A DNA stretch of 64,000 bases from a virus, in the IMG/VR virus record IMGVR_UViG_3300020048_000058; one strand, given 5' to 3'. Under the pieces are notes generated by a model. It ran no database searches, was not told the DNA's origin, and saw nothing but the letters and a program-made list of their open reading frames with translations. Below are positions 7,856 to 32,329 of the stretch, in pieces (position 1 is the stretch's first letter; each line of letters begins with the position of its first letter). The position numbers and the translations under genes were made by a program.

Positions 7856-9433
7856 TCAGTTCCCTTGCCTAACTACAGAATAGATAAAATCAAACATTTC
7901 TGGATCGTTCTTAGCTAGGTAAATGGGGTTTCTGTACATTAATTCCAGTCCCATTGATAATACTTCTGTCCCGTAGGTATACACTTTCCCCATATAAGGA
8001 TGTAACCATTTATCAACTTTCGTTATTTCGCTTTTACTATAGCTCCGATTACCCGTCGCTTCTTTTAATGAAACGGCTGACTCCCCTGCGGTTCTTTTGT
8101 TGTAAAAATTCAACACTTTTCGACTAACTGTATTATTATTCCATTCAAGCCAATGCCCCATTTCATGTACTACCGTCGCTATAGAATTGTCGCCGGGAGC
8201 TATTACAACCCCTCCTGTATATTTCCCGTATTTTTCCTTTTTTTCCCTAAAAACTGGATCACCTCCAAAACTTCCAAAGTTCCCACCTGGATCAAACAAG
8301 CTTCTTATTTGATCAATATTGCCAGTGGAAACACTTGCCATAGAGGAAAAGCCATTTATGCCTACTAATTGAGAAAAAGCCTCAACACCTTTCTTGTAAA
8401 GAGCCTCTGATCCTTCGTCGCTTGCCTTGTAATAGACATCGACAACAATCGGGGAGTCAGATTTTACTATTTGTCTAGCTTCTTCCAATTTGTCTGATAC
8501 TGTCTTTTTGGCAGTTACAATCCGCTCCATTGTTGATTCCAGAAGAAAAGTTGCTTCCTCTGGGTTCTTTTTCGTTAGCTTGTTTACTCTCTTTTGTATT
8601 TGAGTCATCTCATCCAATAGACTTTCTATTGGTTTTTCCTCAAATAATGATACGGGCGTTTTTATCCCTTCAAATATTAACTCGTCACCAAAATCTTTTA
8701 TTAATTGCTCGCGCTTGTTTTTTGCTTCTGCCATCAATAATTTTTCTTGTTTAGCTTGCCTTTCTTCATAGGTTTCATAAAGATTAACCAGAGGAGGTGT
8801 CGTAACAATTTCCCTTGTTTTTTTCGTTTTATATTCTTCCCTTTTTCTTTGTACTTCCTCCCAGTTCTTTATTAACAAGGGTTCTGTTATTTTCTTGAGT
8901 TCATCAGCTTTTTTAAGAAATTCTTTTTCTTCTTCTGGTAAAACGCCTGATTTTATTGACCGTCTTAAATATTTCGCTCGTAATTCGTTTAATTTAAAAA
9001 GCCTGTCCTGAGAAAAATCGTCCTGAGCATTGGCTCTGCAACTTTTCTTGATATTGATACAGATACTTCCACAATTATAGGAAGTTGGCTTTACGCACTG
9101 TGCTTTCTCCCTTTTCGCTCCCCCTGCATCAATTCGGTAAGAATAACCTGCCGAGAAGTCTTCCCAATCCTTTAAATCAACACCCCGACTATCAATTCGA
9201 GGAGTAAATGGCTTATAAGTAACAGACCGCTTGTTAATCTCAAAGGAAAACACACGAGATCTGGTTAAGTCCCTAAACCGCCCTGTTATCTTTTCATTCT
9301 CCAGGGTTCCAGGATCGAAATCTAGCACAATGACCAGAGCATTATAGGCAAAAGGCATTGACAAGATTTGACCTATTGCCAATCTCATCTGAGCTTTTGT
9401 TGGAGCCGTGCTAGAGGTGAAAGATTGAACCAT
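7856..9433 (-). CDS. effector-family paralog: shared N-terminal module + 4-Cys motif + C-terminal HExxH metallopeptidase
   Basis: The N-terminus has APTKAQMRLAIGQILSMPFAYNALVIVLDFD...GRFRDLTRSRVFSFEI...YKPF...WEDFSAGYSYRID, followed by QCVKPTSYNCGSICINIKKSC. The C-terminus has VVHEMGHWLEW and the conserved tail KVDKWLHPYMGKVY...LSMGLELMYRNP...DPEMFDFIYSVVR. Confidence 0.8.
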   Translation of the reverse strand: MVQSFTSSTAPTKAQMRLAIGQILSMPFAYNALVIVLDFDPGTLENEKITGRFRDLTRSRVFSFEINKRSVTYKPFTPRIDSRGVDLKDWEDFSAGYSYRIDAGGAKREKAQCVKPTSYNCGSICINIKKSCRANAQDDFSQDRLFKLNELRAKYLRRSIKSGVLPEEEKEFLKKADELKKITEPLLIKNWEEVQRKREEYKTKKTREIVTTPPLVNLYETYEERQAKQEKLLMAEAKNKREQLIKDFGDELIFEGIKTPVSLFEEKPIESLLDEMTQIQKRVNKLTKKNPEEATFLLESTMERIVTAKKTVSDKLEEARQIVKSDSPIVVDVYYKASDEGSEALYKKGVEAFSQLVGINGFSSMASVSTGNIDQIRSLFDPGGNFGSFGGDPVFREKKEKYGKYTGGVVIAPGDNSIATVVHEMGHWLEWNNNTVSRKVLNFYNKRTAGESAVSLKEATGNRSYSKSEITKVDKWLHPYMGKVYTYGTEVLSMGLELMYRNPIYLAKNDPEMFDFIYSVVRQGN

Positions 9434-9742: not shown

Positions 9743-10909
9743 TTAACCTCTTCTAACTACCGAATAGATAAAATCAAACATATCGGGATCTTGTTTAGCA
9801 AGTGCGACTGGATTCCTATACATTAATTCTAAACCCATTGAGAGAATTTCCGTTGACTTGTCAGGATAAACTTTTCCCATATAAGGACGCATCCATTTAT
9901 CAACCTTTGTTATTTCAGTATCTCCATACGATTTGATTCCGGTTGCGTCTCGCATTTTGACCGCTTTTTCTCCCTTTGTCCTGCGATTGTAAAACTCTAC
10001 AACTTCTTTCTTTATTTCTGGAACGGAGTATTCTATCCAGTGACTTAATTCGTGAATAACTGTACCAGGGTCATCATTCCCCATTGATACGGTTTTATCG
10101 GCACTATTGTAATAACTTCTCTTATCACCCTCTGGCAAGCCTTTAACCTTAACCTTACTCGTTAAACCAGGAATTGACACCATTAAAGACAGTGATTGAA
10201 TCCCCTCATCCCATCGGGATTTATTCTTTTTATCTTTTACTTCAATGTTAAGATTTGTAGGTAAGTCGACTTGAACTAATTTTCTAGCTTCACTTGAAAA
10301 CCTTTTGAAGTCTTCTGATGCAGCCTCTAATTCCCTTAATTTACCTTCACTTAAAATATCAGCTAATGGCGGGTTTGTTTTTAATAGTTTATCAATTTCT
10401 TTCTTTGTTCTTTTTATTAATTTGTCTAAGTATTTCTCTGGCTTTCCATCGTCAATAGCCTTTATAATAGCACTACCTTTGTGTTTAGAAGGATCAAATT
10501 TAGATATAAAATCCCCTGACATTTTATCTAATCGTCCTCTAACTTCTTTCGATTCTTCTAATAGCCTAACTTTTCTTTGTTCTGGGGTTTCTGGTTTATT
10601 TATTGGTTTCTCTTTAGCAAGCGAGGGAGTGTCGGGGGTGAAATCATTGATTGACTTCAAGTTATCGACACCAGGAGGAATAATAGGATTGGATTTAATA
10701 GCCTTTTCTTTTGCAGACCTTCTACTAATGGCAGTAGCATAATCAATTCCCATCGCTTTTAGCTTCTCAAGCCTATCCTTTGACCTAGAATCATTTGGAA
10801 CTATCCTGCAATTTTTCTTAACATTAATGCAAGATAGACCACAATTATAGGAAGTAGTCTTTACACATTGAGCTTTCTTTTCCCTCTTGTCTTCTCTATA
10901 TTTAATCAT
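9743..10909 (-). CDS. effector-family paralog lacking the N-terminal module: 4-Cys motif + HExxH metallopeptidase
   Basis: Starts MIKYREDKREKKAQCVKTTSYNCGLSCINVKKNC. It has VIHELSHWIEY and the same C-terminal tail (KVDKWMRPYMGKVY...LSMGLELMYRNP...DPDMFDFIYSVVRRG). Confidence 0.8.
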   Translation of the reverse strand: MIKYREDKREKKAQCVKTTSYNCGLSCINVKKNCRIVPNDSRSKDRLEKLKAMGIDYATAISRRSAKEKAIKSNPIIPPGVDNLKSINDFTPDTPSLAKEKPINKPETPEQRKVRLLEESKEVRGRLDKMSGDFISKFDPSKHKGSAIIKAIDDGKPEKYLDKLIKRTKKEIDKLLKTNPPLADILSEGKLRELEAASEDFKRFSSEARKLVQVDLPTNLNIEVKDKKNKSRWDEGIQSLSLMVSIPGLTSKVKVKGLPEGDKRSYYNSADKTVSMGNDDPGTVIHELSHWIEYSVPEIKKEVVEFYNRRTKGEKAVKMRDATGIKSYGDTEITKVDKWMRPYMGKVYPDKSTEILSMGLELMYRNPVALAKQDPDMFDFIYSVVRRG

Positions 10910-11991
10910 TTTCTCCTCACAACACTATAAATAAAGTCAAACATTTCAGGGTCATTCTTGGCTAGATAAGCAGGGTTTTCATACATCATTTCCATACCCA
11001 TTGAAAGGATTTCAGAGGCATTCTCGTATTCTTTACCCATATAAGGATGTAGCCATTTGTCCGTCCTCGTCTCCTCCTCCTCTCCATAAGCTGTGTTTCC
11101 CGTGACATCTCGAAGACTAACTAAATCCTCCCCTTTTGTTCGTTTTTTGTAAAAGTCCACAACCTCTTGCCTGATCCCCGGAACCTTTTCTTCTAACCAA
11201 TGACTCATCTCATGAACCACTGTACTAGAAGACTCAACCCCCATATATACATTATTGCTCCCCAAGTTGTAGAAACTCCGCCCCTGTGCTTCTGTAGGAG
11301 CGTCAACGATATTAATTGGGTCTTTTAAATCGGGGATGGAAACCATCCGAGAAAATGCTTCAACTCCTTCCTTGTGTGACGGGGAGCTTATTGAAGCGTT
11401 AATTTTGGTTGGGGAGTCTACCTCTATTAACTTTCTGGATTGAGTTAAAAAATCGGTAACTTCCTCTTTTATGACATCAAGCTTCTTATTCGCTTTTTGA
11501 GCTATCTCTTTTGCACCAGATGGGTTGATTTTGACGGCTTTGCTGATCTGTTTTTTGTAACCATTATGTATCTCCCAAAGTTTGACGTTAGGAGATGCCC
11601 ATCCTAGTACATTCGCAGTGGCTCCTTTTGTTTTCGACTTACCTTCAGATTCTCTAGATAATTTTAACAGTTGTTCTCGCTTACCTTTGGCTTCGGCTTG
11701 CAACCTTGCTTTACGCCTTGCGATGTTGATTTCATTACGGGATTCCCTTAATTCTTTGGCTTCGACTGCTCTCTTGCTTTCGATCACACTAATAAGTTTA
11801 TCGGCATTTCCCCCAAGTCTTTGAGCTTTTTTTGTACTGCTTTGAGCATAAAAAACAGCAAGTTTCTTTAACCTCTGAAGACGCGATCGCCCAAAAGATT
11901 CAGAAGGGACTTGCCGGCAATTTTTAGAGACGTTAATACAGGCGTTGCCACAGTTATAGGATGTTGGCTTTTCGCATTTGGGCTTCTTCAT
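10906..11991 (-). CDS. effector-family paralog lacking the N-terminal module: 4-Cys motif + HExxH metallopeptidase
   Basis: Starts MKKPKCEKPTSYNCGNACINVSKNC. It has VVHEMSHWLEE and the tail DKWLHPYMGKEY...LSMGMEMMYENP...DPEMFDFIYSVVRRK. Its stop overlaps the next start as ATGA. Confidence 0.8.
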   Translation of the reverse strand: MKKPKCEKPTSYNCGNACINVSKNCRQVPSESFGRSRLQRLKKLAVFYAQSSTKKAQRLGGNADKLISVIESKRAVEAKELRESRNEINIARRKARLQAEAKGKREQLLKLSRESEGKSKTKGATANVLGWASPNVKLWEIHNGYKKQISKAVKINPSGAKEIAQKANKKLDVIKEEVTDFLTQSRKLIEVDSPTKINASISSPSHKEGVEAFSRMVSIPDLKDPINIVDAPTEAQGRSFYNLGSNNVYMGVESSSTVVHEMSHWLEEKVPGIRQEVVDFYKKRTKGEDLVSLRDVTGNTAYGEEEETRTDKWLHPYMGKEYENASEILSMGMEMMYENPAYLAKNDPEMFDFIYSVVRRK

Positions 11992-12255: not shown

Positions 12256-13656
12256 TTATCCTAGTTTGGTTTTTTTCTCGTATTCCTTGACAAATGCCTT
12301 GGCTGATTTTTCTGACAGATGAAAATATTCAAGTTCATATCCATATTTAGCACCTTTTTCAATTCGTTTTTTAAACCCAACTGACTTATAAAACGGCACA
12401 GCACTTTCTAATGCCTCTAGTTTTATTTTCCCTTTAAATCCTCTTTTTACACTCTCTTGAATAGCATGATATATGATTTGTTTCCCCACTCCTTTTGTAT
12501 TGGTTATTATATTTGATGGATTAGTACCTAAATATTCTATATACATAGATTCTTTAGATCTATCGTTTCCTGTAAGGAAAAACCCCTGAGATTTCCCAGA
12601 TTCATCCTTTAAAAAAAACGCATCTTGTAATCCTGGCTTGGATTCTGTTGCCCAAGCTAGACCCTCCGCCACAGCATTTGAGTCATCAACTAAGTCTTTT
12701 TTTGCCTCCAGAACATCTCGCTCAATCACCTTGTTGCCATACTTTATAAGTTTATCATACGGGGACTGCTTTAATGCTTCCTCCGCAGTAGCAACGTACT
12801 TACTAGATTTATCAATCCATTCTTTTGCCGTTTTCTTTATCTCTTTCACGGATGCAATAGAAGGCGTTAATTTACCAACTTGTTGCCCTGGGGATTGCTG
12901 CTGTTTTTGTTTTTCTAGCTGTTTTTCTAGCTGTTTTTGTTTTTCTAGCTGTTTTTTTAGCTCCTCTTGTTTTTCTAACTCCTTTTGTTTTTCTAGCTCC
13001 CTTTGTTTTTCTAGCTCCCTTTGTTTTTCTCTTACCCTCTTGTCTCTTTGCCTTTCTCTTACACTCGAGAGTGCAAGAGAAATCTCCTTTTCTTCTTCAA
13101 GAAGATAGGACTTTCTTTCCTTTTGCTCCCCTGGCTTTATTCTGTCCAGTTTTTCGAGATACAGTTTTTTTAAATCGAGTAACTTATCAATCCGTTCCTT
13201 TGAAAAGTCATCATCAGCATCAGCACTGCAACTTTTCTTGATATTGATACAAATACTTCCACAATTGTAGGATGTAGGCTTTACACACTGGGCTTTCTTC
13301 CTTTTTACTCCCCCTGTATCAAAACGATAGGAATAACCCGACGAGAAATCTTCCCATACCTCAACATTCAAACCCGTGCTGTCAATTCGTGCCACGAAGG
13401 GTCGAGCCACGAAAGGTTTATAAACAACCGACTTCCTGTTTATCTCAAAACTAAACACACGGGCTCTAATAGCGTCCTTAAACCGCCCTGTTATCTTATC
13501 GCCGTTACTATCCCCTAAATCAAAATCAAGTACCATCACGGGCGAATTATAGGCAAATGGGAGCGATAACGTTTGAGCGATCGCCAGCCTCATTTGAGCC
13601 TCGGAAACCATAGCGTTTGGATTAATTTTCACTTCCATAGGAGGTTTGTTGTTCAT
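12256..13656 (-). CDS. effector-family paralog: N-terminal module + 4-Cys motif + (QRELEKQ)n coiled coil + C-terminal GNAT acetyltransferase
   Basis: N-terminal module: SEAQMRLAIAQTLSLPFAYNSPVMVLDFD...GRFKDAIRARVFSFEI. Cys motif: QCVKPTSYNCGSICINIKKSC. The C-terminus has the GNAT motif-A-like TKGVGKQIIYHAIQESVKRGFKGKIKLEALESAVPFYKSVGF. Confidence 0.8.
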   Translation of the reverse strand: MNNKPPMEVKINPNAMVSEAQMRLAIAQTLSLPFAYNSPVMVLDFDLGDSNGDKITGRFKDAIRARVFSFEINRKSVVYKPFVARPFVARIDSTGLNVEVWEDFSSGYSYRFDTGGVKRKKAQCVKPTSYNCGSICINIKKSCSADADDDFSKERIDKLLDLKKLYLEKLDRIKPGEQKERKSYLLEEEKEISLALSSVRERQRDKRVREKQRELEKQRELEKQKELEKQEELKKQLEKQKQLEKQLEKQKQQQSPGQQVGKLTPSIASVKEIKKTAKEWIDKSSKYVATAEEALKQSPYDKLIKYGNKVIERDVLEAKKDLVDDSNAVAEGLAWATESKPGLQDAFFLKDESGKSQGFFLTGNDRSKESMYIEYLGTNPSNIITNTKGVGKQIIYHAIQESVKRGFKGKIKLEALESAVPFYKSVGFKKRIEKGAKYGYELEYFHLSEKSAKAFVKEYEKKTKLG

Positions 13657-13677: not shown

Positions 13678-14886
13678 CTATATTTTATCTTGTTTTAGTT
13701 TTTTCTCGTATTCCTTGACAAAGGCTTTAGCTGATTCTTCTGACAAATCGAAGTCCTCGGTGTATCCATCAACGCCTATTTTTGTTGTAAACCCAACTGA
13801 CTCATAAAAAGGTTCTGCGGAGGATAACGCATCTAGCTTTATTTTCCCTTTAAATCCTCGCTTCACACTCTCTTGAATAGCGTGGTATATGATTTGTTTT
13901 CCCACTCCTTTTGTATCGGTTATTATATTCGATGGATTAGTACCTAAAAATTCTATATACATAGATTCTTTAGATTTGTCATTTCCCGTAAGGAAAAAGC
14001 CTTGAGTTTTTCCAGATTCATCCTTCAAGAAAAACGTATCTTGTACTCCAGGCTCAGTTTCGCCAAACTCAATTGATTCTGCGGTCATACCTAGCCCAAA
14101 AGTTACTATCCTTGAGTCACCAACTAAACCTATTTTTTTCTCAAGAACCTTCCTTTCTATCCCTTGATTATTGCCATATTTTATGATTTCTCCAGGTGGA
14201 GACGCTTTTAACACTTTCTTTGCAATAGTGAGGTACTCCTCTGATTTGTCAAGCCATTCTTCTGTCGTTTTTAGCATTTCCTCTATAGATGCAACAGAAG
14301 GAGTTAACTTACCAACTTTTCGCACTGGAGGTTGTTGCTGTGCTTTAACTTCTTCCTGTTTAGCAGGTTTTTCCATTGGGGTCTCTGCTTTAGGCTTGGT
14401 TTGGGGCTTTTCTACAGTCGTTTTAGTCGTTTTTGCATAATCTTTCCCAACTACTTCTAACTTTTTAAGCCTATCTTTTATTGTGGGATCATCGGTTTTG
14501 ATTTTGCAACTTTTCATGATGTTGATACAGGCTTTCCCGCAGTTATAAGCCGTTGGTTTAACACACTGTGGCTTCTTATTGCCTCCTATCCCCGCATCTA
14601 CCCGATAGGAGTAGCCACTAGAGAACTCCTCCCAGTCATCTACGCTATCCATCCGTCCTGGGGTGTAAGGTTTAAAGGTTACTGACTGCCCTTTGATATT
14701 AAATGAAAAAATACGGGGACGGGTTGCATCCTTGAATTTGCCTTCAAACTCCCCTTGATCATTTACCGAAAAATCCAACATCACCACCGGAGCATTGTAG
14801 GCAAATGGTTGAGACAGAGTTTGGGCGATCGCCAACTTCATCTGTGGCTCGGTTGGCGTGGCATCTTTTCTAGTCGTTGAACTCAT
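13678..14886 (-). CDS. effector-family paralog: N-terminal module + 4-Cys motif + C-terminal GNAT acetyltransferase
   Basis: N-terminal module: TEPQMKLAIAQTLSQPFAYNAPVVMLDF...GKFKDATRPRIFSFNI. Cys motif: QCVKPTAYNCGKACINIMKSC. The C-terminal GNAT region is about 90 percent identical in the core to that of 12256..13656. Confidence 0.8.
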   Translation of the reverse strand: MSSTTRKDATPTEPQMKLAIAQTLSQPFAYNAPVVMLDFSVNDQGEFEGKFKDATRPRIFSFNIKGQSVTFKPYTPGRMDSVDDWEEFSSGYSYRVDAGIGGNKKPQCVKPTAYNCGKACINIMKSCKIKTDDPTIKDRLKKLEVVGKDYAKTTKTTVEKPQTKPKAETPMEKPAKQEEVKAQQQPPVRKVGKLTPSVASIEEMLKTTEEWLDKSEEYLTIAKKVLKASPPGEIIKYGNNQGIERKVLEKKIGLVGDSRIVTFGLGMTAESIEFGETEPGVQDTFFLKDESGKTQGFFLTGNDKSKESMYIEFLGTNPSNIITDTKGVGKQIIYHAIQESVKRGFKGKIKLDALSSAEPFYESVGFTTKIGVDGYTEDFDLSEESAKAFVKEYEKKLKQDKI

Positions 14887-14897
14887 GGTTAAATCTC

Positions 14898-17615
14898 CTA
14901 TACTTCCTCAGCTTCAACAATAATCCGTCCGTTTTCTTTTTTGACACTTTTAACTCGATGGCGAGTGTCTTTCAGCACCATAACTTCGTCTTCTTCTTTG
15001 ATATTGCTCAAATTCCTAATAGACGCACCTGACTTATTAATGGCTTTAATGACGACGGGATACCTTGGTTCATAAATATCGAAATCGTCGAAATCGTCCG
15101 AAAAATACTCTGCTGTTTCAAGGCTAGATGACCAAGAGGCGTGAGCACCTTGATTATCTAGCACTCCATCCTTGTCGCCGTTAGCCCAGTTTAAAGCCTC
15201 CTCTTTGGTTGCAAAATGAATCCCTCGGTAAACTTCGCCTTTGTATGGGGTTGAGTTCCTGACATAATTAGAGATCCGATTTGCATCTTCGTTTTCTTCC
15301 CCTGCTTTTTGATCGACTCGGATGTCACTGGAATCCCTTGTCCATTTATAGATGGCTGTAGTGGTGGCTGCTGCCTCCTTCTTAGAAATATTTACCCCTG
15401 CTTTTTCCAGTGCTTCACGATACTCATCGGGGGTTGAGGGCATGGATTCATGGTCGCCCTTCCCTACTAAATTAAGGTTTTTAGGTTTTTCTTCGGGTTG
15501 TTTAGGTGTTTTTTCTTGCTCAATACCATCAGAAGATTCAACCTCTTCTACCTGTGCATATATAACGCCACCTCTTTCCGTAAAACTTTTAATCTTGTGT
15601 CTAGTGTCTTTTAGGACAACAACCTCGTCTTGATCTTTAAAACGGGGATTGGCTAAATTACGAATAGACGCTCCCGACTTGTTCACAGCTTCAATAATAA
15701 CAGGTTGTGACCCCTTCCCGTACTGTCCATGACTGTGTGCGGAGAACCTTTCTGCGATTTCCTTTTTGGAACTCCATGATGCGTGGGCGTTTTGATTATC
15801 TAAAATCCCATCTTTATCACCTTTCAACCACTTCAGTGCTTCTTCTCTGGAGGATAAGTTTATCCCTCTATATATTTCGCCTTTGTATGGGGTTGAGTTT
15901 TTAACAAAACTTGCAATATCTTCTCCTTGCTGATTAAATTTTCCCGCTTTTTGATCGTTTCTAACTAGGTGGCTTGTATCAGTCCAGCCTGAAATAGACT
16001 GGACAACCCTTTGAGCTTCTTCTGGTGTTATTTCTCCCCCGGCTTTTGCTATTGCCTTCTGATATTCTTGGGCATTTTTTGGAACTCCCTTATGAGTCCC
16101 GTTACCCACTAATTTTGTGGATTGCTGTTTCTTGGCTTTAGGCGCTACTGTTTGCGGTTCTGGTTTTAATTCAGGAGTTGAAACAGGAGGGTTTTCTGTT
16201 TTGGCTTTAGATGTCGCTTCGGTAGCCTTTTTCTCGGATTCTTTTTGGGTTTTAGTTATTTCTGGTGACGGTTCAGGCGTTTTCTTTTCCTTGCCAGGAG
16301 AAACTTCTTCTGTCTCAACGATCAAAACACCATCTTCGTACACAACCTTTTTAACCCGATGGCGAGTGTCTTTGGCAACCACTACCTCATCTTCCGCGCC
16401 AATGTTGCTTAGGTTTTTGATGGAGGCACCCGACTTATTATTTGTTTTGATAATGACAGGTTGCGATGTAAAGTCGTTTACCGAATTGTTACCAGCAAAT
16501 CCTCTCGCTTTATCCCAATTAGAAGTCCAAGAAGCATGGGCATTCTGATTATCTAATATCCCATCCTTATCTCCCTTAGCCCAACTCAAAGCCTCATCTG
16601 TTGATCCAAAGGAGATGCCTCGGTAGATTTCACCCTTGAATGGCGTTGAACTCTTGACGTAATCAGTGATCCGGTCGGCAACGAGGCTGTATTTCCCTGC
16701 TTTTTGAGATTCTCTAATATAAGAGGCATCCTCTGTCCACTCTTTAACGGCTCCGGTAATCTTTATGGCATCGTCATAAGAGATGGGATTACCCGATGCT
16801 TTCATTGCTTCAAAGTACCCGTATGCGTCGCCAGGAACGGACTCATGATCCCCCTTTCCTACTAAATTAAGAGGCTTGGGTTCGTTTTCAGGTTCTTTAA
16901 GGGTTTCTGTTTGATCTTCACTCTTTACAGCTATTTTAGCAGCTTTCTTCCCTTCTTCAAAGTCAGATTCTTTCCCTTTTTTGCTAGGGGGAATTTCCTT
17001 TATTGTTTCTGGGATTTTATCTATTTCTGGTGGTTTTTCTACCTCTTTCTTGGTTTTTGTAGTTGATTTAGGATTGGATTTCTTGGCTTCTTTAGCGTAA
17101 TCAATACCAGCAGCTTTCAATTTCTCTAAACGATCCTTTGACTGAGCGTCATCGGGGTTTGATTTACAATTATTTTTAATATTTATACAGGCTTTCCCAC
17201 AATTATACGCTGTTGGCTTAACGCATTGAGGCTTTTTTTTGCCACCTACTCCTGCGTCAACACGGAAGCCATACCCTGCTGAAAATGCTTCCCATTCTTG
17301 GACATCTTCCTCTGATTCTAAGCTGTCCATTTTGCCAGGTTTATAAGGCTTATAGGCTACGGACTCCCCATCTAAAGTAAAGGAAAACACCCGTGGACGT
17401 GCCGCATCTTTAAATACTCCGGTAATATTCCCATTCTCGGCAACATCAAATTTAAGCACAACAACTGGGGCGTTGTAAACAAAATCCATTGACAAGGTTT
17501 GGGCAATAAGTAACCTCATTTGAGCTTCGGTTGGCGCAGTACCCTTGCCATCATCCCCAACTGATACTTCATCTTCGTCAACCCGATATAAAGAACTTGG
17601 TTTTGTTTTTAACAT
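14898..17615 (-). CDS. effector-family paralog: N-terminal module + 4-Cys motif + three tandem ADP-ribosyltransferase (R-S-E type) domains
   Basis: There are three ~200-aa repeats. Each has YRGI (Arg), AHASW(T/S)S (S-x-S) and (E/Q)DEV(V/M)V (Q/E-x-E), and each ends in VE(T/A)EEV. Before the repeats come the N-terminal module TEAQMRLLIAQTLSMDFVYNAPVVVLKFD and QCVKPTAYNCGKACINIKNNC. Confidence 0.8.
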   Translation of the reverse strand: MLKTKPSSLYRVDEDEVSVGDDGKGTAPTEAQMRLLIAQTLSMDFVYNAPVVVLKFDVAENGNITGVFKDAARPRVFSFTLDGESVAYKPYKPGKMDSLESEEDVQEWEAFSAGYGFRVDAGVGGKKKPQCVKPTAYNCGKACINIKNNCKSNPDDAQSKDRLEKLKAAGIDYAKEAKKSNPKSTTKTKKEVEKPPEIDKIPETIKEIPPSKKGKESDFEEGKKAAKIAVKSEDQTETLKEPENEPKPLNLVGKGDHESVPGDAYGYFEAMKASGNPISYDDAIKITGAVKEWTEDASYIRESQKAGKYSLVADRITDYVKSSTPFKGEIYRGISFGSTDEALSWAKGDKDGILDNQNAHASWTSNWDKARGFAGNNSVNDFTSQPVIIKTNNKSGASIKNLSNIGAEDEVVVAKDTRHRVKKVVYEDGVLIVETEEVSPGKEKKTPEPSPEITKTQKESEKKATEATSKAKTENPPVSTPELKPEPQTVAPKAKKQQSTKLVGNGTHKGVPKNAQEYQKAIAKAGGEITPEEAQRVVQSISGWTDTSHLVRNDQKAGKFNQQGEDIASFVKNSTPYKGEIYRGINLSSREEALKWLKGDKDGILDNQNAHASWSSKKEIAERFSAHSHGQYGKGSQPVIIEAVNKSGASIRNLANPRFKDQDEVVVLKDTRHKIKSFTERGGVIYAQVEEVESSDGIEQEKTPKQPEEKPKNLNLVGKGDHESMPSTPDEYREALEKAGVNISKKEAAATTTAIYKWTRDSSDIRVDQKAGEENEDANRISNYVRNSTPYKGEVYRGIHFATKEEALNWANGDKDGVLDNQGAHASWSSSLETAEYFSDDFDDFDIYEPRYPVVIKAINKSGASIRNLSNIKEEDEVMVLKDTRHRVKSVKKENGRIIVEAEEV

Positions 17616-23465: not shown

Positions 23466-26400
23466 CTAACCTTGCGATCGCACCTCTTGAACTTTTATCG
23501 CCTTTTGTTTTATCGCCTTTTGTTTTATTGACTTTTGTTTTACTGCCTTCTGGGGTTGAGTAACTTCAGGCTTTAAGTCGTTAGGGGAACTATCAGAATC
23601 ATCTACTTTATAGCGTTTACCATCTCGGATGACGTGGGAAATCTCATCAAGAGTAGCCACACCTTCAACATCGTAAGGCTTCCCGTTTAAAGAGGTTCCT
23701 CTATTTCTAACTTTTACATTTTTAATATTAACTTTTAAAACTTCCCCTCCATCCGCAATTTTATAATCAGACGGATTACTCAATCTTTCTGAAACGTAAG
23801 ACTTAACAAAGAGTTTATCCCCAGGATTTAATGTTTTTCTTAAATCCTTGCTTGGTACACTTCCAGACAACGGCGGCGGAACATCCTTCGTTTTCATCAC
23901 GCCTTTTAATTTATCGTAATCCTTTTCGTAATCAGGGCTATCATAATATTCATGCTCTTTATAGCCTTTTTCTTTCATCTTATTAAGAACATAAACCCTC
24001 GCCTCTCCTTCTGTTTCATAGTCCCCTTTTATTGCTTTTTTTCGTCTCTCATTTATAAAGTCTTCATTATCAACAACAGGCTTAAATCTATCGACTTGCG
24101 ATTGATAATGACTTTCGTACCCTTTTGGAACAGTATTATTTTTTATTGCAGTCGAATATTCGTTATAATTATCTCTGTGAAAATCAGGAAGCCCCCGCAT
24201 TAATGCCATAGATACTTCTTCCTCTGCTCTTTTAGGATCTTTCGACTTAGCAATAATATCCTTATATTGCTGATCAACCGATTTCTCGGCTTTTTCTTTT
24301 GCATCTCTAGCATCCCGTGCAGCAACTTCTTCTTCTGCACCTTGTTTTGTCATCCCATACTGAGCCTGTACTATTCCAACTTTAACTGCGTGTAATTGTT
24401 CGTTATTTAGATCCTTGTTTTTTAAGTCTACTGATTTGATTAAATCAGTCATTTCTACTGCACTATTTTCAGCCTGTTTGAGTGTTTCATCCATCTCTCG
24501 ATAGCCGTATTTAAACGTATGGAATCGCAAGCCATTAGGAATATGTGTTACTGCATAGCCATCTATCGTGTCTGTCTGTTTTCCTGTCCACTGTTCTGCT
24601 CTATAGTTAGGGTGAATAGCTAAATCTCCCCTTGCCATAGCCTCTATCTTGGCTTCACCCGCCCCTGTTTGTATGGTTATTTCTGACTTTTTAAAACCCT
24701 TTTTCTCTAATCTTTTTACCAATAATTCCGGTACGGGTTTCATTTTTGATTCAGTTTTAATATTTTTAATATCTATTTTGCCACGATCACCAGGTTCCTC
24801 TACCCCTGTTGAATTTGGGGATGGTTTGGGTAGCTTTCCACTATCAATCATTGAATTGATATCGTCAATGTTAACGATTTGGGATTTGCCCTGAGTGATT
24901 TCTTTAACTAACCTTTTTGCTCTATTTTCTTTTTCTTTATCATTTTTAGCAAAAAGACTAAACGACATAGTACCATCGGATTTGTGCAGCGTGAGTTGTC
25001 TTTTTTCTCCATCATAACTGTCTGACACTTTTGCACCCACGATGACATCTTCCTTGCCATTAGATGATGTAACTTTCCAGGGAATACCAGTAACATCATT
25101 GTGAGCGGTTATATCCTCAGATTTGCCAGAGTAACGCCTTTTAGCATTCTCAGACCTCCATCCTTCAGACAATCCCATACCTTTTTCTAATTCAATTTTA
25201 TCGGGTTGTTTATTGTTATATTCCTGTTGTTCTTTAGTTGGCGAATTAGCTGAACGTTTCGCAATATAGTCAACTGTAGCAACATTTTTAAAATCTACAG
25301 CAACACGATAATCTGAGCTAGTTTTTTTAGTTTTTTTAACTAATTCCTCAGCCTCTAATAAAGCCTTTCCTTCTGGGGTGTTTGAATCTATAAACAACTT
25401 ATACCCCGCACCACCAAGGTATTCTCTATTAAGCGTGTATTTGGTTTCCCCTTTTTCGTACTGTTCCGCCAGAAAATCCGTAGCTTCTTTTTCAGTTAGT
25501 TTTTTTGACGTTCCGCCCTGTCTAGCTGACAGTTTTGGATCGTTTAATAGATACATCCCCCTGTCATGTTGCAATCTGTATCTCTCTTTTTCGTTAAGCA
25601 ATATCTGTCCAGACTTAACCTTTCCTATATCTGCGATCGCTCTTTCAGACATGGCGGAATTTGGGGATGGTTTAGGGTCTGATTTAGTTTCTAGCTTAGA
25701 TTTGTACTTATCAGATAGAAAATCTACGGCTTCTTTTTCTGTTAGCTTTTTCGCGTACAACCTCCCACCCTGTTGAACCGATATGTTTGGATTGCTTAAA
25801 CTAAATAGTTTATCGTTCCCTCCTGATGTTGACAATCTATATCCTTCTTTTGGATTAAGCAATATCTGTCCAGACTTGATTCTCTCTATATCTGAGATCG
25901 CTCTTTTGACTGCATCAGAATCGGGCGTCGGTTTTGCGATTGCTCTTTGTGCTACAGAGGGAATAGGGGCTGGCTTGGGTTCGGGTGTTGGTTTTGCGAT
26001 CGCCTCAACTTCCGGTGTCACCGTCACAACATCTGGTTTTGGTTGAGCTTTCTGCAACTTCTCAACCCGTGTCATCACATCATTGGCAAATTTTTCGGCT
26101 TGCTCTCTTTTCTTGAATCTATGACTCGGAGCCATGTTGCCATTTGGGGGTTCTCTCAGTACGTCCCCATTCTTATTGATAACTTGCCAACCCAAAACGG
26201 GATCGGCGGTTAATTTTAAATCTCTATAGGAATCAAGGTCGTCTGTTAGGTTAACTGATTTTTTGCCAATTTTTAAAGCGAGTTTTAACGGGGTGAGGGT
26301 ATATTTGTCTTCGGATGGCTGTTTTACAATGTCGGTGACGGGGACTTCTGTTTTATTGGGAATGGGGGTGACTTGCTTGATTTCTTCCGGTGGCTTTGGA

Positions 26401-26924
26401 GTTAACTTATTACCCTCTTGCTTCTTGGTTGGATCATCCTGAACGGCTTTAAATTTCCCTGCCATCGCCTTAACCTTGTCTATCTTTTCCTGAGATGGTT
26501 TATCGGTGGGATCTGATTTGCAGTTCTTATTCAACCCGATGCAAGCCTTCCCGCAGTTATAGGAGGTATTGCCACACTTAGGTTTTTCTTTCCTCTTGGT
26601 TTTAGCTGCGTCATACCGATAGGTGTACCCTTTAGAAAATTCTTCCCATGCCACTAGATCGATATCCGCGCTGTCTATTCTTTTCTGGGTAAACGGCTTA
26701 AAACTTATGGAGTCATCAATCTCAAATTCAAATATACGGAGTCGGGAAGCATCCTTAAATCTACCCTTGATCACATTCCTGTTGCCTACCTCAAAATCAA
26801 CGACAATTACGGGGGAGTTGTAAGCAAATGGAAGGGATAGGACTTGCGCGATCGCTAACTTCATCTGAACTTCGGTGGGAGCCGCGTTAGATTGGTTTAC
26901 TTTAATAGCGGGAGTTGTAATCAT
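23466..26924 (-). CDS. giant effector-family paralog (1152 aa): N-terminal module + 4-Cys motif + long multi-domain body of unknown function
   Basis: N-terminal module: APTEVQMKLAIAQVLSLPFAYNSPVIVVDFE...GRFKDASRLRIFEFEI. Cys motif: KCGNTSYNCGKACIGLNKNC. There is an internal ~80-aa duplicated domain (…IKSGQILLN.KE.YRL…KKLTEKEA.DFL…). The C-terminal ~330 aa is homologous to the C-terminus of 28299..31187 and ends in a KQK(S/A)IKQK repeat. Confidence 0.8.
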   Translation of the reverse strand: MITTPAIKVNQSNAAPTEVQMKLAIAQVLSLPFAYNSPVIVVDFEVGNRNVIKGRFKDASRLRIFEFEIDDSISFKPFTQKRIDSADIDLVAWEEFSKGYTYRYDAAKTKRKEKPKCGNTSYNCGKACIGLNKNCKSDPTDKPSQEKIDKVKAMAGKFKAVQDDPTKKQEGNKLTPKPPEEIKQVTPIPNKTEVPVTDIVKQPSEDKYTLTPLKLALKIGKKSVNLTDDLDSYRDLKLTADPVLGWQVINKNGDVLREPPNGNMAPSHRFKKREQAEKFANDVMTRVEKLQKAQPKPDVVTVTPEVEAIAKPTPEPKPAPIPSVAQRAIAKPTPDSDAVKRAISDIERIKSGQILLNPKEGYRLSTSGGNDKLFSLSNPNISVQQGGRLYAKKLTEKEAVDFLSDKYKSKLETKSDPKPSPNSAMSERAIADIGKVKSGQILLNEKERYRLQHDRGMYLLNDPKLSARQGGTSKKLTEKEATDFLAEQYEKGETKYTLNREYLGGAGYKLFIDSNTPEGKALLEAEELVKKTKKTSSDYRVAVDFKNVATVDYIAKRSANSPTKEQQEYNNKQPDKIELEKGMGLSEGWRSENAKRRYSGKSEDITAHNDVTGIPWKVTSSNGKEDVIVGAKVSDSYDGEKRQLTLHKSDGTMSFSLFAKNDKEKENRAKRLVKEITQGKSQIVNIDDINSMIDSGKLPKPSPNSTGVEEPGDRGKIDIKNIKTESKMKPVPELLVKRLEKKGFKKSEITIQTGAGEAKIEAMARGDLAIHPNYRAEQWTGKQTDTIDGYAVTHIPNGLRFHTFKYGYREMDETLKQAENSAVEMTDLIKSVDLKNKDLNNEQLHAVKVGIVQAQYGMTKQGAEEEVAARDARDAKEKAEKSVDQQYKDIIAKSKDPKRAEEEVSMALMRGLPDFHRDNYNEYSTAIKNNTVPKGYESHYQSQVDRFKPVVDNEDFINERRKKAIKGDYETEGEARVYVLNKMKEKGYKEHEYYDSPDYEKDYDKLKGVMKTKDVPPPLSGSVPSKDLRKTLNPGDKLFVKSYVSERLSNPSDYKIADGGEVLKVNIKNVKVRNRGTSLNGKPYDVEGVATLDEISHVIRDGKRYKVDDSDSSPNDLKPEVTQPQKAVKQKSIKQKAIKQKAIKVQEVRSQG

Positions 26925-27710: not shown

Positions 27711-28360
27711 TTAAATTTCTTCGGTTTCTACATAGAATATGCCATTTTTCTCAGTAACACTCTTAACTTTGTGCTTGGCATCTTTTGAAACAATAACTTC
27801 CGATTCTTGAGGCTTTAGTCCTACATCCTTAATTGATACCCCGTCTTGTTTTTTGCCTTGATAATAACAGGATAAGCTCCTTCTACATATTGAGACAAAG
27901 ATGGATTTTCTTTGTAGCTAGCTTTTGAAAAATCATAAGCTACTTTGTCATCAGAAGTCCATGAAGCATGAGCTTTTTGGTTGTCTAAAACGCCGTTTTC
28001 ATCCCCTTTTAACCACGTCTCAACTTCTTCTCTACTATAGAAAAGAATCCCTCTACTTACATCCCCATCATAGGGTGTCATGCTTTTCATGAACCTATTG
28101 ATATTTTCCTCGTTTTTATTTGGCCTCCCATCTTTTTGATCGTCTCTGACCTCATCGGAGTCTGTGATCCATCTTTTGACTGATTTAATGATTTTCTCAG
28201 CCTCCTCTATAGTAATGTTTTCCCCTTTTTTAACCATCGCCTCGTAGTATTCTTGTGCGTTTTTAGGGGTTCCGTCGTGGGCTCCATCTCCTATTAATTT
28301 AGGAGTCTCTTTGACTATTTCCTCTTTCGGGACTAAAGGCGATTCTTGTGGCGATCGCAC
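27711..28360 (-). pseudogene. fourth ADP-ribosyltransferase domain, split over two frames and out of frame with the upstream 962-aa ORF
   Basis: ORF 27821..28360 carries VSRGI (Arg) and AHASWTS (S-x-S). The Q/E-x-E strand (PQESEVIVSKDAKHKVKSV…VETEEI stop at 27711) lies in another frame. The shifts map to short G-runs, at about 28360 (one extra G relative to the paralog at 23480) and about 27841-27844. Confidence 0.7.
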
Positions 28361-31240: not shown

Positions 31241-32329
31241 CTAGTTCCACTGAAACAACTCTTCTCCTTTCTCCGTTACCGTGAATATTTTACCATTGGT
31301 TTTAAGATTTTCAAAATGACCATCTAATTGCTGTTGAGAAATTCCATTTTTTTTGGCATAATCACTTAACAACTTATTACGTTTAATTGCTACAACCCCC
31401 TGTAGTTCCTGTTTTCTTTTTTCTTCGTTATAAAATTCTTTAAAATCTTTCTCGAATTTAGTATAAGATATCTGTTTTTCTTTGATCGCTTTTTGTCCTG
31501 CACCCAAGTCTTTTGTTTTAGAAGATTTGGTTGCAGGTTGTTTTTTCTGCTCTTTGGGTGTCTGTCCTCCAGCCCAAGATAATAATTCTTCTCCTTTCTC
31601 CATTACTGAGAATATTTTTTTATTATCTTTTAATTTCTCGAAATAATCCTCTAACTGTTCACGGGGAACATTGTACTTCCTTTCGGCAATATCTAACATC
31701 TGCCGGCGTTTGATTGCTACAACACCTTTTAATTCTTGCTTCCTTTGCTCCTCAAAATAAAGGTCTTCAAAGTCGCTCTCAAAATTAGAGTAAGAAAGTT
31801 TCTTGTCCTTTGATTCAGAAACTTTTGGTTCCTTCTGTTTTTCTCCCCCTTTTTGCCCATCTTTAAAATCCTTCGCCAGAGACTTTAGTTTATCTATTCT
31901 ATCTTTTGAGTTAGCATCATCGGGGTTGCGCCTGCAATTTTTCTTAATATTTATACAAGATTTACCACAATTATAAGATGTGGGCTTCACGCACTGCGGC
32001 TTTTTTTTAGCCCCTCCGGGTGTATCAAAGCGAAAGCTATAACCAAGGGAAAAATCCTCCCATTCCTCCTCATTGTCCAGTCGCCCAATCTTAAAAGGGC
32101 TAAAACGGATATCGTCCAAAATCTCGAAGCTAAACACACGAGGACGATCAGCATCCTTAAACCGTCCCGTAATTTTACCATCATCACCCACCTCAAAGTC
32201 CAAAACAATAACCGGAGAATTATAAATTGATGGGAGGGATAGTGTTTGGGCGATCGCTAACCGCATCTGTTCCTTGGTAGGAGCAGCATCAAAGCTAGGG
32301 GGATTTTGACGGTTTAAGGTAGTGACCAT
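31241..32329 (-). CDS. effector-family paralog: N-terminal module + 4-Cys motif + two copies of an ~85-aa domain
   Basis: N-terminal module: APTKEQMRLAIAQTLSLPSIYNSPVIVLDFE...GRFKDADRPRVFSFEI. Cys motif: QCVKPTSYNCGKSCINIKKNC. Then come two repeats: LSYSNFESDFEDLYFEEQRKQELKGVVAIKRRQMLD…KIFSVMEKGEELLSW and ISYTKFEKDFKEFYNEEKRKQELQGVVAIKRNKLLS…KIFTVTEKGEELFQW. Confidence 0.8.
   Translation of the reverse strand: MVTTLNRQNPPSFDAAPTKEQMRLAIAQTLSLPSIYNSPVIVLDFEVGDDGKITGRFKDADRPRVFSFEILDDIRFSPFKIGRLDNEEEWEDFSLGYSFRFDTPGGAKKKPQCVKPTSYNCGKSCINIKKNCRRNPDDANSKDRIDKLKSLAKDFKDGQKGGEKQKEPKVSESKDKKLSYSNFESDFEDLYFEEQRKQELKGVVAIKRRQMLDIAERKYNVPREQLEDYFEKLKDNKKIFSVMEKGEELLSWAGGQTPKEQKKQPATKSSKTKDLGAGQKAIKEKQISYTKFEKDFKEFYNEEKRKQELQGVVAIKRNKLLSDYAKKNGISQQQLDGHFENLKTNGKIFTVTEKGEELFQWN

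What the first reader, a model, noticed from the sequence alone, without database searches (positions are those of the whole stretch)
14898..17615. One polypeptide carrying three tandem R-S-E ADP-ribosyltransferase domains
After the family N-terminal module, the 905-aa protein contains three ~200-aa repeats. Each has:
- a helical lead-in (…(W/Y)T.D.S.(I/V)R..QKAG…);
- STP(F/Y)KGE(I/V)YRGI (the catalytic Arg);
- DNQ.AHASW(T/S)S (the S-x-S motif);
- SGASI(K/R)NL……(E/Q)DEV(V/M)V (the Q/E-x-E motif).

Each repeat ends in VE(T/A)EEV. Lys/Pro/Glu-rich linkers separate them.

All three copies retain the full catalytic triad pattern but have diverged, especially between the S-x-S and E-x-E strands. 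This region usually shapes target recognition. The divergence suggests three different substrates delivered by one protein, or proteolytic release of three enzymes.

I am not aware of triple-ART phage proteins as a described feature. T4 uses three separate ART genes (alt, modA, modB).
Basis: partly seen in the sequence, partly recalled or inferred. Interest (0 to 1): 0.65.

Follow-up and report, generated by a model that had tools for sequence, protein, structure and literature searches.

The report
Cyanophage protein with three ADP-ribosyltransferase domains
A relative of the Planktothrix cyanophage PaV-LD encodes one 905-residue protein with three intact but diverged toxin-type ADP-ribosyltransferase domains behind a lineage-specific N-terminal module; it is real, but it is a new variant of the already described multi-enzyme phage effector proteins, not a new kind of thing.

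Summary
ORF 14898..17615 (minus strand, 905 aa) carries three ~190-aa repeats (49-58% identical) separated by K/P/E-rich linkers, with every quoted motif present.

A profile of 20 non-redundant repeats hits the arginine ADP-ribosyltransferase (ART) Vis (E=2.9e-7) with R, S-x-S and E-x-E aligned. The AlphaFold model (pLDDT 92) matches only R-S-E ARTs (Tre1, Vis, HopU1, XopAI, C3, ExoS). All three copies keep the catalytic residues and evolve under purifying selection. They belong to three old repeat lineages. They differ most in the post-S-x-S helix and loop and in the loop before E-x-E, and copy 2 has Q-x-E instead of E-x-E.

The gene is a mosaic of PaV-LD ORF078R and ORF079R plus an inserted middle cassette. 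Its N-terminal module has no Pfam or PDB match and heads nine paralogs in the structural gene block, with ART, GNAT, HExxH or unknown cargo.

The novelty claim is weakened. Iyer et al. 2017 described phage polyvalent proteins with up to 12 ART copies, of another clade. A search of 1.84 billion proteins found MuF- or portal-fused proteins with 3-6 R-S-E ART domains.

Virion packaging, processing and targets remain inferred.

The parts
14898..17615 (-). Whole ORF, 905 aa: N-module, then three ART domains separated by linkers
17082..17615 (-). N-terminal family module (aa 1-178). It has a helix plus 4-stranded sheet core, a 4-Cys motif QCVKPTAYNCGKACINIKNNC, and a long helix. No known family or fold matches it.
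16872..17081 (-). Linker 1 (aa 179-248), 56% K/P/E, low complexity
16302..16871 (-). ART domain 1 (aa 249-438): R332, S362-W-T364, E408-D-E410. It is the ortholog of PaV-LD ORF079R repeat 1 (94% aa, 92% nt).
16119..16301 (-). Linker 2 (aa 439-499), 52% K/P/E
15540..16118 (-). ART domain 2 (aa 500-692): R583, S613-W-S615, Q662-D-E664 (Q-x-E). This is an inserted cassette with no PaV-LD counterpart; its nearest relative is repeat 2 of P0002 (75% aa).
15477..15539 (-). Linker 3 (aa 693-713), 57% K/P/E
14901..15476 (-). ART domain 3 (aa 714-905): R797, S827-W-S829, E875-D-E877. It is the ortholog of PaV-LD ORF079R repeat 2 (80% aa, 84% nt).
13678..14886 (-). Paralog: N-module plus a GNAT-like acetyltransferase domain (402 aa). 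It starts 12 nt downstream of the ART gene.
12256..13656 (-). Paralog: N-module, coiled coil, then a GNAT-like domain (466 aa)
10906..11991 (-). Paralog with only the Cys-rich core of the N-module plus an HExxH (HEMSHW) C-terminal domain (361 aa)
9743..10909 (-). Paralog with the Cys-rich core plus an HExxH (HELSHW) domain (388 aa). It is the counterpart of PaV-LD ORF081R, which is labelled 'virion structural protein'.
7856..9433 (-). Paralog: full N-module plus an HExxH (HEMGHW) domain (525 aa)
31241..32329 (-). Paralog: N-module plus two copies of an unknown ~85-aa domain (362 aa), located just downstream of the portal gene
28299..31187 (-). Paralog: N-module with the variant Cys motif, plus ~800 aa of unknown sequence (962 aa). 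It is the homolog of the front part of P0011.
23466..26924 (-). Paralog: N-module with the variant Cys motif, plus ~1000 aa of unknown sequence (1152 aa)
27714..28372 (-). Fourth ART domain of the same family. It is out of frame with the upstream 962-aa ORF and is interrupted by a 1-nt deletion in a G5 run (27839-27842).

Best explanation
The 905-aa protein is a polyvalent effector of a PaV-LD-like Planktothrix cyanophage. It is expressed with the virion genes.

Shown here: it has three independently folding R-S-E (C3/VIP2/Vis/Tre1-like) mono-ADP-ribosyltransferase domains. All are catalytically intact by sequence and each is kept by purifying selection. They are strung on disordered K/P/E-rich linkers behind a lineage-specific ~175-aa N-terminal module.

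Inferred: the N-module plays the role that MuF or portal fusions play in other phages. It would load or anchor the cargo in the capsid so that the enzymes enter the host cytoplasm with the DNA. There, using host NAD+, each domain would mono-ADP-ribosylate its own set of host proteins, as T4 Alt does, to reprogram or disarm the cell at the start of infection.

The three domains probably differ in acceptor preference. They differ most in the substrate-facing loops, and domain 2 has Q-x-E where domains 1 and 3 have E-x-E. The array arose by cassette shuffling (recombination within the conserved N-module and between repeats), not by recent tandem duplication.
For: ART identity:
- Profile A1 hits Vis (4xzj) at E=2.9e-7 with YRG/STS/ExE in register. 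Tre1 and XopAI are the next hits.
- The AF2 model has pLDDT 91.9 and pTM 0.87. The top 50 Foldseek PDB hits are all ARTs, with Tre1 at 3e-10 followed by Vis, HopU1, XopAI, C3 and ExoS/T.
- Weak Pfam PF03496 and PF01129 hits and a weak NCBIfam XopAI hit agree.

Intactness and selection:
- R84, W115, S117 and E162 are invariant, and S114 is nearly invariant, across 20 non-redundant repeats.
- dN/dS against orthologs is 0.15-0.28 for all three copies.

Different specificities:
- The three copies fall in three deep clades, and synonymous sites between them are saturated.
- 0-33% of columns are identical in the post-STS helix, the variable loop and the ARTT-like loop, against 63-77% in the catalytic strands.
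- Copies 1 and 3 read E-D-E and copy 2 reads Q-D-E.

Shuffling:
- The gene is a mosaic of ORF078R and ORF079R plus a 710-nt insert.
- Homologs carry 1, 2 or 3 ARTs, with or without GNAT or other cargo.
- P0011 carries 3 ARTs at another locus.

Virion association (contextual only):
- Nine N-module paralogs sit between portal, protease, major capsid protein and tape measure, all on one strand.
- No immunity-sized ORF lies beside the gene.
- The PaV-LD paralog ORF081R is labelled 'virion structural protein' by its authors.
- The nearest viral structural matches are ARTs fused to portal, MuF or minor capsid proteins, and Alt-like enzymes.
- PMC5512222 and PMC9503650 document head-packaged ARTs and polyvalent proteins.
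Against: - There is no direct evidence that this protein is in virions, is ejected, or has enzymatic activity.
- The N-module has no similarity to MuF, portal or any solved fold, so its loading role is inferred from position and analogy only.
- The basis of the ORF081R 'virion structural protein' label could not be checked, because the paper is not held.
- Individual repeats fall below the Pfam gathering thresholds (22.9 vs 23.4 bits for the whole protein).
- Q-x-E is not conserved across the whole clade of domain 2 (P0010_r3 has E-K-E), so the specificity argument is soft.
- Late-operon expression is equally compatible with action inside the producing cell.
Confidence: 0.6

Rival explanations
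1. The protein is not packaged. It is a late-expressed intracellular enzyme array that modifies host or phage proteins in the producing cell, as T4 ModA and ModB act after expression. The N-module would be an oligomerisation or localisation domain unrelated to the virion.
For: The gene lies in the late structural block, so it is made when the cell is already infected. The N-module has no detectable relation to MuF, portal or known capsid-targeting sequences. No virion proteomics could be consulted.
Against: Nine paralogs are embedded among portal, protease, capsid and tape-measure genes. A paralog is labelled 'virion structural protein' in PaV-LD. Homologous ART arrays elsewhere are physically fused to MuF or portal. 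Effector types such as ART, GNAT and metallopeptidase on a shared N-terminal module are the pattern described for head-delivered polyvalent proteins (PMC5512222).
Confidence: 0.2
2. Only one of the three domains is a working transferase. The others would be adaptor or binding domains, as in the binary toxins (VIP2, iota Ia, C2I), where a duplicated ART fold has lost catalysis. Alternatively, the domains act as NAD+ glycohydrolases that deplete NAD+ rather than modify targets.
For: Duplicated ART folds with one inactive copy are well known in the VIP2/iota family (my own knowledge). ART-fold NADase effectors exist (Tne5, PMC13285283, listed). Sequence alone cannot separate transferase from NADase activity.
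Against: All three copies keep R, S-x-S and [E/Q]-x-E. These positions are invariant or nearly so in 20 non-redundant repeats. Each copy shows dN/dS of 0.15-0.28. Nothing suggests decay of catalytic residues in any copy.
Confidence: 0.12
3. The three-domain architecture is an assembly or annotation artefact, for example repeat mis-assembly or a read-through of separate genes.
For: The window is probably a metagenome assembly. Another ART gene in the same window carries a homopolymer frameshift, so some sequence errors are possible.
Against: The DNA repeats are only ~70% identical, too diverged to mis-assemble. The ORF is uninterrupted over 2718 nt. The identical protein is seen on 2 contigs. 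An independent contig, L005, is colinear over nt 369-2718 at 91% identity. Other three-ART proteins exist (P0010, P0011).
Confidence: 0.03

Closest known systems
Polyvalent proteins of phages and conjugative elements (Iyer, Burroughs, Anand, de Souza, Aravind 2017, PMC5512222)
   Same: Both are single polypeptides that combine several effector domains and are encoded with head or late genes. ART is the commonest protein-modifying domain in that class and can occur in multiple copies (up to 12 in one prophage protein). GNAT and zincin-like metallopeptidase domains are in the same repertoire. Delivery with the DNA is predicted.
   Different: The multi-copy ARTs described there belong to the H-Y-D (Tox-ART-HYD2) clade, whereas these are R-S-E. 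Here the enzymes are spread over about nine paralogs that share a new N-module instead of being packed into one giant protein. No MuF, portal or N4-vRNAP module is present in this protein.
MuF (SPP1 gp7 / Mu F) polymorphic toxins and MuF- or portal-fused Alt/VIP2-type ARTs (Jamet et al. 2017, PMC5576092; Iyer et al. 2022, PMC9503650)
   Same: Both have a conserved N-terminal head-associated module followed by variable C-terminal toxin domains, including ADP-ribosyltransferases and metallopeptidases. Injection with the DNA is hypothesised. Database relatives P0053, P0063 and P0091 are MuF proteins with 3-5 tandem R-S-E ARTs of this same family.
   Different: The N-module here is not MuF: there is no PF04233 hit and no fold match. 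MuF toxins were reported almost only in temperate phages and prophages. PaV-LD was isolated as a lytic cyanophage (my own knowledge, not tested here). Tandem ART arrays were not described in the MuF paper.
T4 Alt (head-packaged, injected R-S-E ADP-ribosyltransferase), with ModA and ModB
   Same: Alt is an R-S-E clade phage ART. It is packaged in the head and injected, and it modifies RNA polymerase and many other host proteins. T4 uses three ART paralogs with different targets.
   Different: T4's three ARTs are separate genes with different timing, whereas here three are fused in one chain. Sequence similarity is only at fold level (Alt-like hits at 1e-8 to 1e-7 in BFVD). No capsid-targeting sequence or gp21-type processing has been demonstrated.
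Bacterial R-S-E ART toxins Vis (Vibrio splendidus), Tre1 (Serratia T6SS effector), HopU1, XopAI and the C3 exoenzymes
   Same: These are the best sequence and structure matches. They share the N-terminal helical region, the Arg strand, the S-T-S strand and the ARTT loop with [E/Q]-x-E.
   Different: They are single-domain toxins delivered by secretion systems, often with an immunity protein (Tre1-Tri1). Identity is only 11-20%. No immunity gene lies next to the phage gene.
Binary-toxin enzymatic components (VIP2, iota Ia, C2I, CDTa)
   Same: They have two ART folds in tandem in one chain, produced by duplication.
   Different: In those toxins the N-terminal copy has lost its catalytic residues and serves as an adaptor. 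Here all three copies keep them.

Membership tests
R-S-E (cholera-toxin-like / C3-VIP2-Alt type) mono-ADP-ribosyltransferase fold | Split beta-sheet ART fold, with the N-terminal helical region typical of C3/VIP2-like enzymes | tested here: met
   AF2 model of domain 1 has pLDDT 91.9 and four helices followed by beta strands. The top 50 Foldseek PDB hits are all ARTs, E from 3e-10 down to about 3e-7, TM 0.5-0.63. Domains 2 and 3 match the same HMM end to end.
R-S-E (cholera-toxin-like / C3-VIP2-Alt type) mono-ADP-ribosyltransferase fold | Catalytic Arg on beta-1 (aromatic-R-G) | tested here: met
   R332, R583 and R797 sit in (I/V)YRG. The Arg is invariant in 20 non-redundant repeats and aligns to YRG of Vis.
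R-S-E (cholera-toxin-like / C3-VIP2-Alt type) mono-ADP-ribosyltransferase fold | S-x-S (STS) motif on the next strand | tested here: met
   S362-W-T364, S613-W-S615 and S827-W-S829 are present. AHASWTS aligns to AFTSTST of Vis. W and the following S are invariant; the first S is present in at least 90% of repeats. The middle residue is Trp rather than Thr.
R-S-E (cholera-toxin-like / C3-VIP2-Alt type) mono-ADP-ribosyltransferase fold | [E/Q]-x-E at the end of the ARTT loop, with an invariant catalytic Glu | tested here: met
   The motifs are E408-D-E410, Q662-D-E664 and E875-D-E877. The second Glu is invariant across the 20 repeats. The first position is E or Q in 19 of 20.
R-S-E (cholera-toxin-like / C3-VIP2-Alt type) mono-ADP-ribosyltransferase fold | NAD+-dependent ADP-ribosyl transfer to an acceptor | not testable with these tools
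   This needs a biochemical assay.
Pfam PF03496 ADPrib_exo_Tox / PF01129 ART | Score at or above the curated gathering threshold | tested here: not met
   The whole protein scores 22.9 bits against a cutoff of 23.4 (PF03496) and 18.7 against 22.3 (PF01129). Single repeats score 12-14 bits. 7 of 20 repeats hit PF03496 and 5 of 20 hit PF01129 at E<0.1. This is a near-miss: the family is a divergent branch that current Pfam models capture poorly.
MuF polymorphic toxins (Phage_Mu_F, PF04233, N-terminal domain) | N-terminal MuF / SPP1 gp7 head-morphogenesis domain | tested here: not met
   No PF04233 hit in the protein or in its N-module alone. There is no PDB sequence or fold match for the N-module. 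In contrast, the relatives P0053, P0063 and P0091 do have PF04233.
MuF polymorphic toxins (Phage_Mu_F, PF04233, N-terminal domain) | Conserved N-terminal module with variable C-terminal toxin domains among paralogs and orthologs | tested here: met
   Nine paralogs in the window carry ART, GNAT, HExxH or unknown cargo. Homologs carry 1-3 ARTs with or without GNAT or other domains. A recombination junction lies inside the N-module.
Polyvalent proteins (Iyer et al. 2017) | Two or more effector domains in one polypeptide of a phage or conjugative element, encoded with virion or transfer genes | tested here: met
   Three ART domains sit in one ORF within the portal-to-tape-measure block. Homologs combine ART and GNAT domains.
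Polyvalent proteins (Iyer et al. 2017) | Packaging into the head and delivery into the host with the DNA | not testable with these tools
   Only contextual evidence is available. This needs virion proteomics and an infection assay.
Polymorphic toxin systems (toxin plus cognate immunity) | An adjacent immunity gene | tested here: not met
   The neighbouring genes are 12 nt (GNAT paralog) and 89 nt (139-aa head-tail gene) away. No small ORF lies between them on the coding strand.

The most novel reading that the evidence does not exclude
The ~175-aa Cys-containing N-module defines a previously unrecognised, cyanophage-specific cargo-loading system that is functionally analogous to MuF but unrelated to it. 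Through this system a PaV-LD-like phage would pack about nine different effector proteins (four ART domains, two GNATs, three HExxH peptidases and several unknown domains) into the capsid. The three ART domains of this one protein would hit three different host targets or residue types (Arg for E-x-E, another acceptor for Q-x-E) in the first moments of infection of Planktothrix.
Probability: 0.3. Interest if true: 0.6.

Novelty: new variant of a known kind. Interest (0 to 1): 0.45.

Why it matters
Phage-delivered ADP-ribosyltransferases are a classic way of taking over a host (T4 Alt), and they are being looked at again as counter-defence tools.

This locus offers a compact natural experiment. 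Three diverged and apparently active ART domains sit in one chain, with one-, two- and three-domain versions in sister phages. That makes it suitable for asking how ART loops set target choice, and whether multi-domain effectors are processed.

The shared N-module, which is not MuF, not a portal fusion and matches no known fold, could be a new handle for loading proteins into capsids in a phage that infects a bloom-forming toxic cyanobacterium.

The value lies mainly in extending a known theme to cyanophages and to the R-S-E clade. It does not reveal a new principle.

Tried and rejected
1. Single-sequence Pfam and NCBIfam scans of the protein and of each repeat gave only sub-threshold ART hits. 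I therefore relied on a 20-repeat profile and on structure.
2. The N-module gave nothing: no significant PDB sequence hit, no significant Foldseek PDB hit (best E 0.14), and no Pfam hit. A profile search of 5.8 billion proteins returned only 26 mostly short fragments from the same phage group, so its function stays inferred.
3. I tried to read the original PaV-LD paper (PMC3255931) for virion proteomics, but it is not held. The Sandusky Bay paper mentions only ORF081R as a virion structural protein and says nothing about ARTs.
4. Phrase searches for tandem or multiple ART domains found no relevant paper.
5. I considered the conserved 'LVGxGxH' start and 'EE[VI]' end of each repeat as protease sites. 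I rejected them as evidence because AF2 places both inside the folded domain at high confidence, and 'EE[VI]' is also the natural C-terminus.
6. I considered a recent tandem duplication. This is rejected because the copies belong to three deep clades and synonymous sites are saturated.
7. I considered mis-assembly and rejected it.
8. I considered a binary-toxin-like inactive adaptor copy. This is disfavoured by motif retention and by dN/dS.
Full report
**1. What is there**

The window is a relative of Planktothrix phage PaV-LD: 65% of a 10-kb probe aligns at about 90% nt identity. ORF 14898..17615 on the minus strand encodes 905 aa.

The repeats are aa 249-438, 500-692 and 714-905, and they are 49-58% identical pairwise. 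An HMM of the repeat matches each copy over its full length with i-Evalues near 1e-87. The intervening segments are 52-57% Lys/Pro/Glu with 5-13% hydrophobic residues, so they are probably flexible linkers.

At DNA level the copies are only about 70% identical. The same protein is recorded on two contigs. An independent contig (L005) is colinear at 91% nt identity over nt 369-2718.

**2. What the repeats are**

Individual repeats score below the Pfam thresholds. The whole protein scores 22.9 bits against 23.4 for PF03496.

A profile of 20 non-redundant repeats (alignment A1) hits the NAD+:arginine ADP-ribosyltransferase Vis at E=2.9e-7. In that alignment YKGeiYRG pairs with YKGTAYRG, AHASWTS pairs with AFTSTST, and EikeEDEVvv pairs with EYSKEAEVLF. 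Tre1 and XopAI are the next hits.

AlphaFold2 on A1 gives pLDDT 91.9 and pTM 0.87, with four N-terminal helices followed by the beta core. Foldseek against the PDB returns only ADP-ribosyltransferases (ARTs) among the top 50: Tre1 at 3e-10, then Vis, HopU1, XopAI, C3bot, ExoS/T, Plx2A, C3larvin and Certhrax.

The repeats are therefore R-S-E-clade mono-ART domains of the C3/VIP2/Vis/Tre1 type. The catalytic Arg (R332/R583/R797), the S-W-[T/S] motif, and the terminal Glu of [E/Q]-x-E (E410/E664/E877) are present in all three copies. They are invariant or nearly invariant across the 20 repeats.

**3. Are all three copies functional and different?**

Nei-Gojobori dN/dS against orthologous repeats:

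| Comparison | dN/dS |
|---|---|
| Domain 1 vs PaV-LD | 0.15 |
| Domain 1 vs L005 | 0.20 |
| Domain 2 vs L005 | 0.28 |
| Domain 3 vs PaV-LD | 0.20 |
| Domain 3 vs L005 | 0.65 (only 27 substitutions) |

Between the paralogous copies, synonymous sites are saturated.

In a neighbour-joining tree the three copies fall into three deep clades, each with orthologs in other phages. The array is therefore old and maintained, not a fresh duplication.

The fraction of alignment columns identical in all three copies varies by region:

| Region | Columns identical in all three |
|---|---|
| Arg strand | 71% |
| S-x-S strand | 77% |
| NKSGASI strand | 63% |
| Helix after S-x-S | 18% |
| Following indel-rich loop | 0% |
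| ARTT-like loop before E-x-E | 33% |

Domain 2 has Q-D-E where domains 1 and 3 have E-D-E. From my own knowledge of C3-like enzymes, E-x-E goes with arginine and Q-x-E with other acceptors such as asparagine, and a Gln-to-Glu exchange in C3 switches the acceptor to arginine. These facts make different acceptor preferences plausible but do not prove them. The Q is also not fixed across the whole clade of domain 2.

**4. How the gene was built**

- Nt 1-505 match the N-module of PaV-LD ORF078R (84%).
- Nt 737-1391 match ORF079R repeat 1 (92%).
- Nt 2101-2718 match ORF079R repeat 2 (84%).
- The roughly 710 nt in between (domain 2 plus linkers) have no PaV-LD counterpart.

L005 has the same three domains behind the ORF079R-type N-module.

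Homologs from the 5.8-billion-protein search show every combination: N-module plus 1, 2 or 3 ARTs, 2 ARTs plus GNAT, 1 ART plus GNAT, and 1 ART plus an unknown repeat domain. In a related 78-kb phage contig the three-ART protein P0011 sits at a different locus, between portal and protease, and another ART protein occupies the locus studied here. ART cassettes are evidently shuffled by recombination within the conserved N-module and between repeats.

**5. Context and likely mode of action**

The N-module is about 175 aa. It has a helix plus four-stranded sheet, a C-x7-C-x3-C-x6-C motif and a long helix. The AF2 model has pLDDT 70 overall and above 85 in the core.

This module heads nine ORFs in the window:
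- 31241-32329, 28299-31187 and 23466-26924, just after the portal gene;
- 14898-17615, 13678-14886 (GNAT) and 12256-13656 (GNAT);
- 10906-11991, 9743-10909 and 7856-9433 (HExxH domains), between the head-tail connector genes and the tape measure.

All nine lie on one strand, together with portal (33398-35296), the DUF2213 protease (20927-22480), the major capsid protein (19124-20077) and the tape measure (1445-7072).

The N-module has no Pfam hit, no PDB sequence hit and no PDB fold hit, and it is confined to this phage group. No immunity-like ORF flanks the gene. The PaV-LD authors label ORF081R, a paralog, as 'virion structural protein'; I could not check the basis for this.

In BFVD the nearest non-PaV-LD structural matches are ARTs fused to portal, MuF or minor capsid proteins, and Alt-type enzymes.

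By analogy with T4 Alt, MuF toxins and polyvalent proteins (PMC5512222, PMC5576092, PMC9503650), the most likely mechanism runs as follows:
1. The N-module recruits the protein into the capsid.
2. The protein enters the cell with the DNA.
3. The three ART domains use host NAD+ to modify different host proteins.

Steps 1 and 2 and the target identities are inferred. Only the enzyme identity, its integrity and the modular family are shown.

**6. Novelty**

That premise is not correct in general.

[quoted passage not shown] Those ARTs are of the H-Y-D clade, and the paper contrasts them with the R-S-E Alt/VIP2 clade.

For the R-S-E clade I ran the repeat profile against 1.84 billion representative proteins. 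There were 1748 hits at E<=1e-3. Nine of the best 150 had three or more matched stretches. Inspection showed true arrays, mostly with intact R and [E/Q]-x-E motifs:

| Protein | Architecture |
|---|---|
| P0051 | 6 ARTs |
| P0053 | MuF + 4 ARTs |
| P0063 | MuF + HExxH + 5 ARTs; cluster annotated 'SPP1 gp7 family putative phage head morphogenesis protein' |
| P0091 | MuF + 3 ARTs |
| P0070, P0074 | 3 ARTs |
| P0111 | 3 ARTs |
| P0046 | portal + 2 ARTs; WP_190450554.1 from Phormidium sp. FACHB-592 |

Tandem R-S-E ART arrays on head-associated proteins are therefore recurrent in nature. I found no paper that describes them explicitly.

What is specific here is the non-MuF, lineage-restricted N-module with its large paralog family, and the occurrence in a cyanophage. 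I classify the finding as a new variant of a known kind, with interest 0.45.

**7. Caveats**

- No activity, packaging or processing data exist for this protein.
- The conserved 'LVGxGxH' start and 'EE[VI]' end of each repeat are modelled as part of the fold. They should not be read as cleavage sites.
- NADase activity rather than transferase activity cannot be excluded from sequence.

Noticed in passing
window 27714-28372 (- strand); G-run at 27839-27842: There is a fourth ART domain of the same family. It is 97% nt-identical to repeat 2 of P0011 (L002). It is out of frame with the upstream 962-aa N-module ORF and is broken by a single-G deletion in a G5 run. Adding one G restores a full domain ending ...VETEEI*. 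It is either a very recent pseudogene or a homopolymer sequencing error. In PaV-LD the equivalent (ORF066R, 170 aa) is an intact stand-alone ART.
   Followed up: partly
window 7856-9433, 9743-10909, 10906-11991, 12256-13656, 13678-14886, 23466-26924, 28299-31187, 31241-32329 (all - strand): Eight further paralogs share the N-module or its Cys-rich core. They carry different cargo: two GNAT-like, three HExxH metallopeptidase-like, a two-repeat unknown domain, and two proteins of about 1000 aa with unknown content. Together with the ART gene they take up about 17 kb of the structural region.
   Followed up: partly
window 33398-35296 (- strand): The portal protein (PF06381) has a C-terminal inorganic-pyrophosphatase-type domain (PF18823 InPase, E=2e-26). 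This is another enzyme fused to a head component, and the same fusion is present in the related contig L002.
   Followed up: no
window 23466-26924 and 28299-31187 (- strand), C-terminal ~250 aa: The 1152-aa and 962-aa paralogs share a conserved C-terminal region (…SVDQQYKDIIAxSKDPK … HVIRDGKRYKVDDSDSSPNDLKP) followed by a KAVKQKS(V/I)KQK repeat. In P0011 this type of linker leads directly into the ART array.
   Followed up: no
window 12256-13656 (- strand), aa ~200-250: The 466-aa GNAT paralog contains a long, highly regular E/K/Q coiled-coil-like repeat (REKQRELEKQRELEKQKELEKQEELKKQLEKQKQLEKQLEKQKQQQ) between the N-module and the cargo. In the other paralogs a K/P/E linker occupies this position.
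   Followed up: no
L002 21946-23627 (JGI Ga0453719_0000022) and L002 10001-13627: The related 78-kb phage contig carries two ART-bearing N-module genes. P0011, with 3 ARTs, lies after the portal gene, and a second gene lies at the position equivalent to the window's 905-aa gene. That genome therefore encodes at least four ART domains too, distributed differently.
   Followed up: partly
PaV-LD (NC_016564): BFVD entries G9BW46 (360 aa) and G9BWG9 (170 aa): PaV-LD itself has two more proteins with this ART fold at 41% identity, in addition to ORF079R. All are annotated as hypothetical or 'minor head protein', and none is annotated as an ADP-ribosyltransferase.
   Followed up: no
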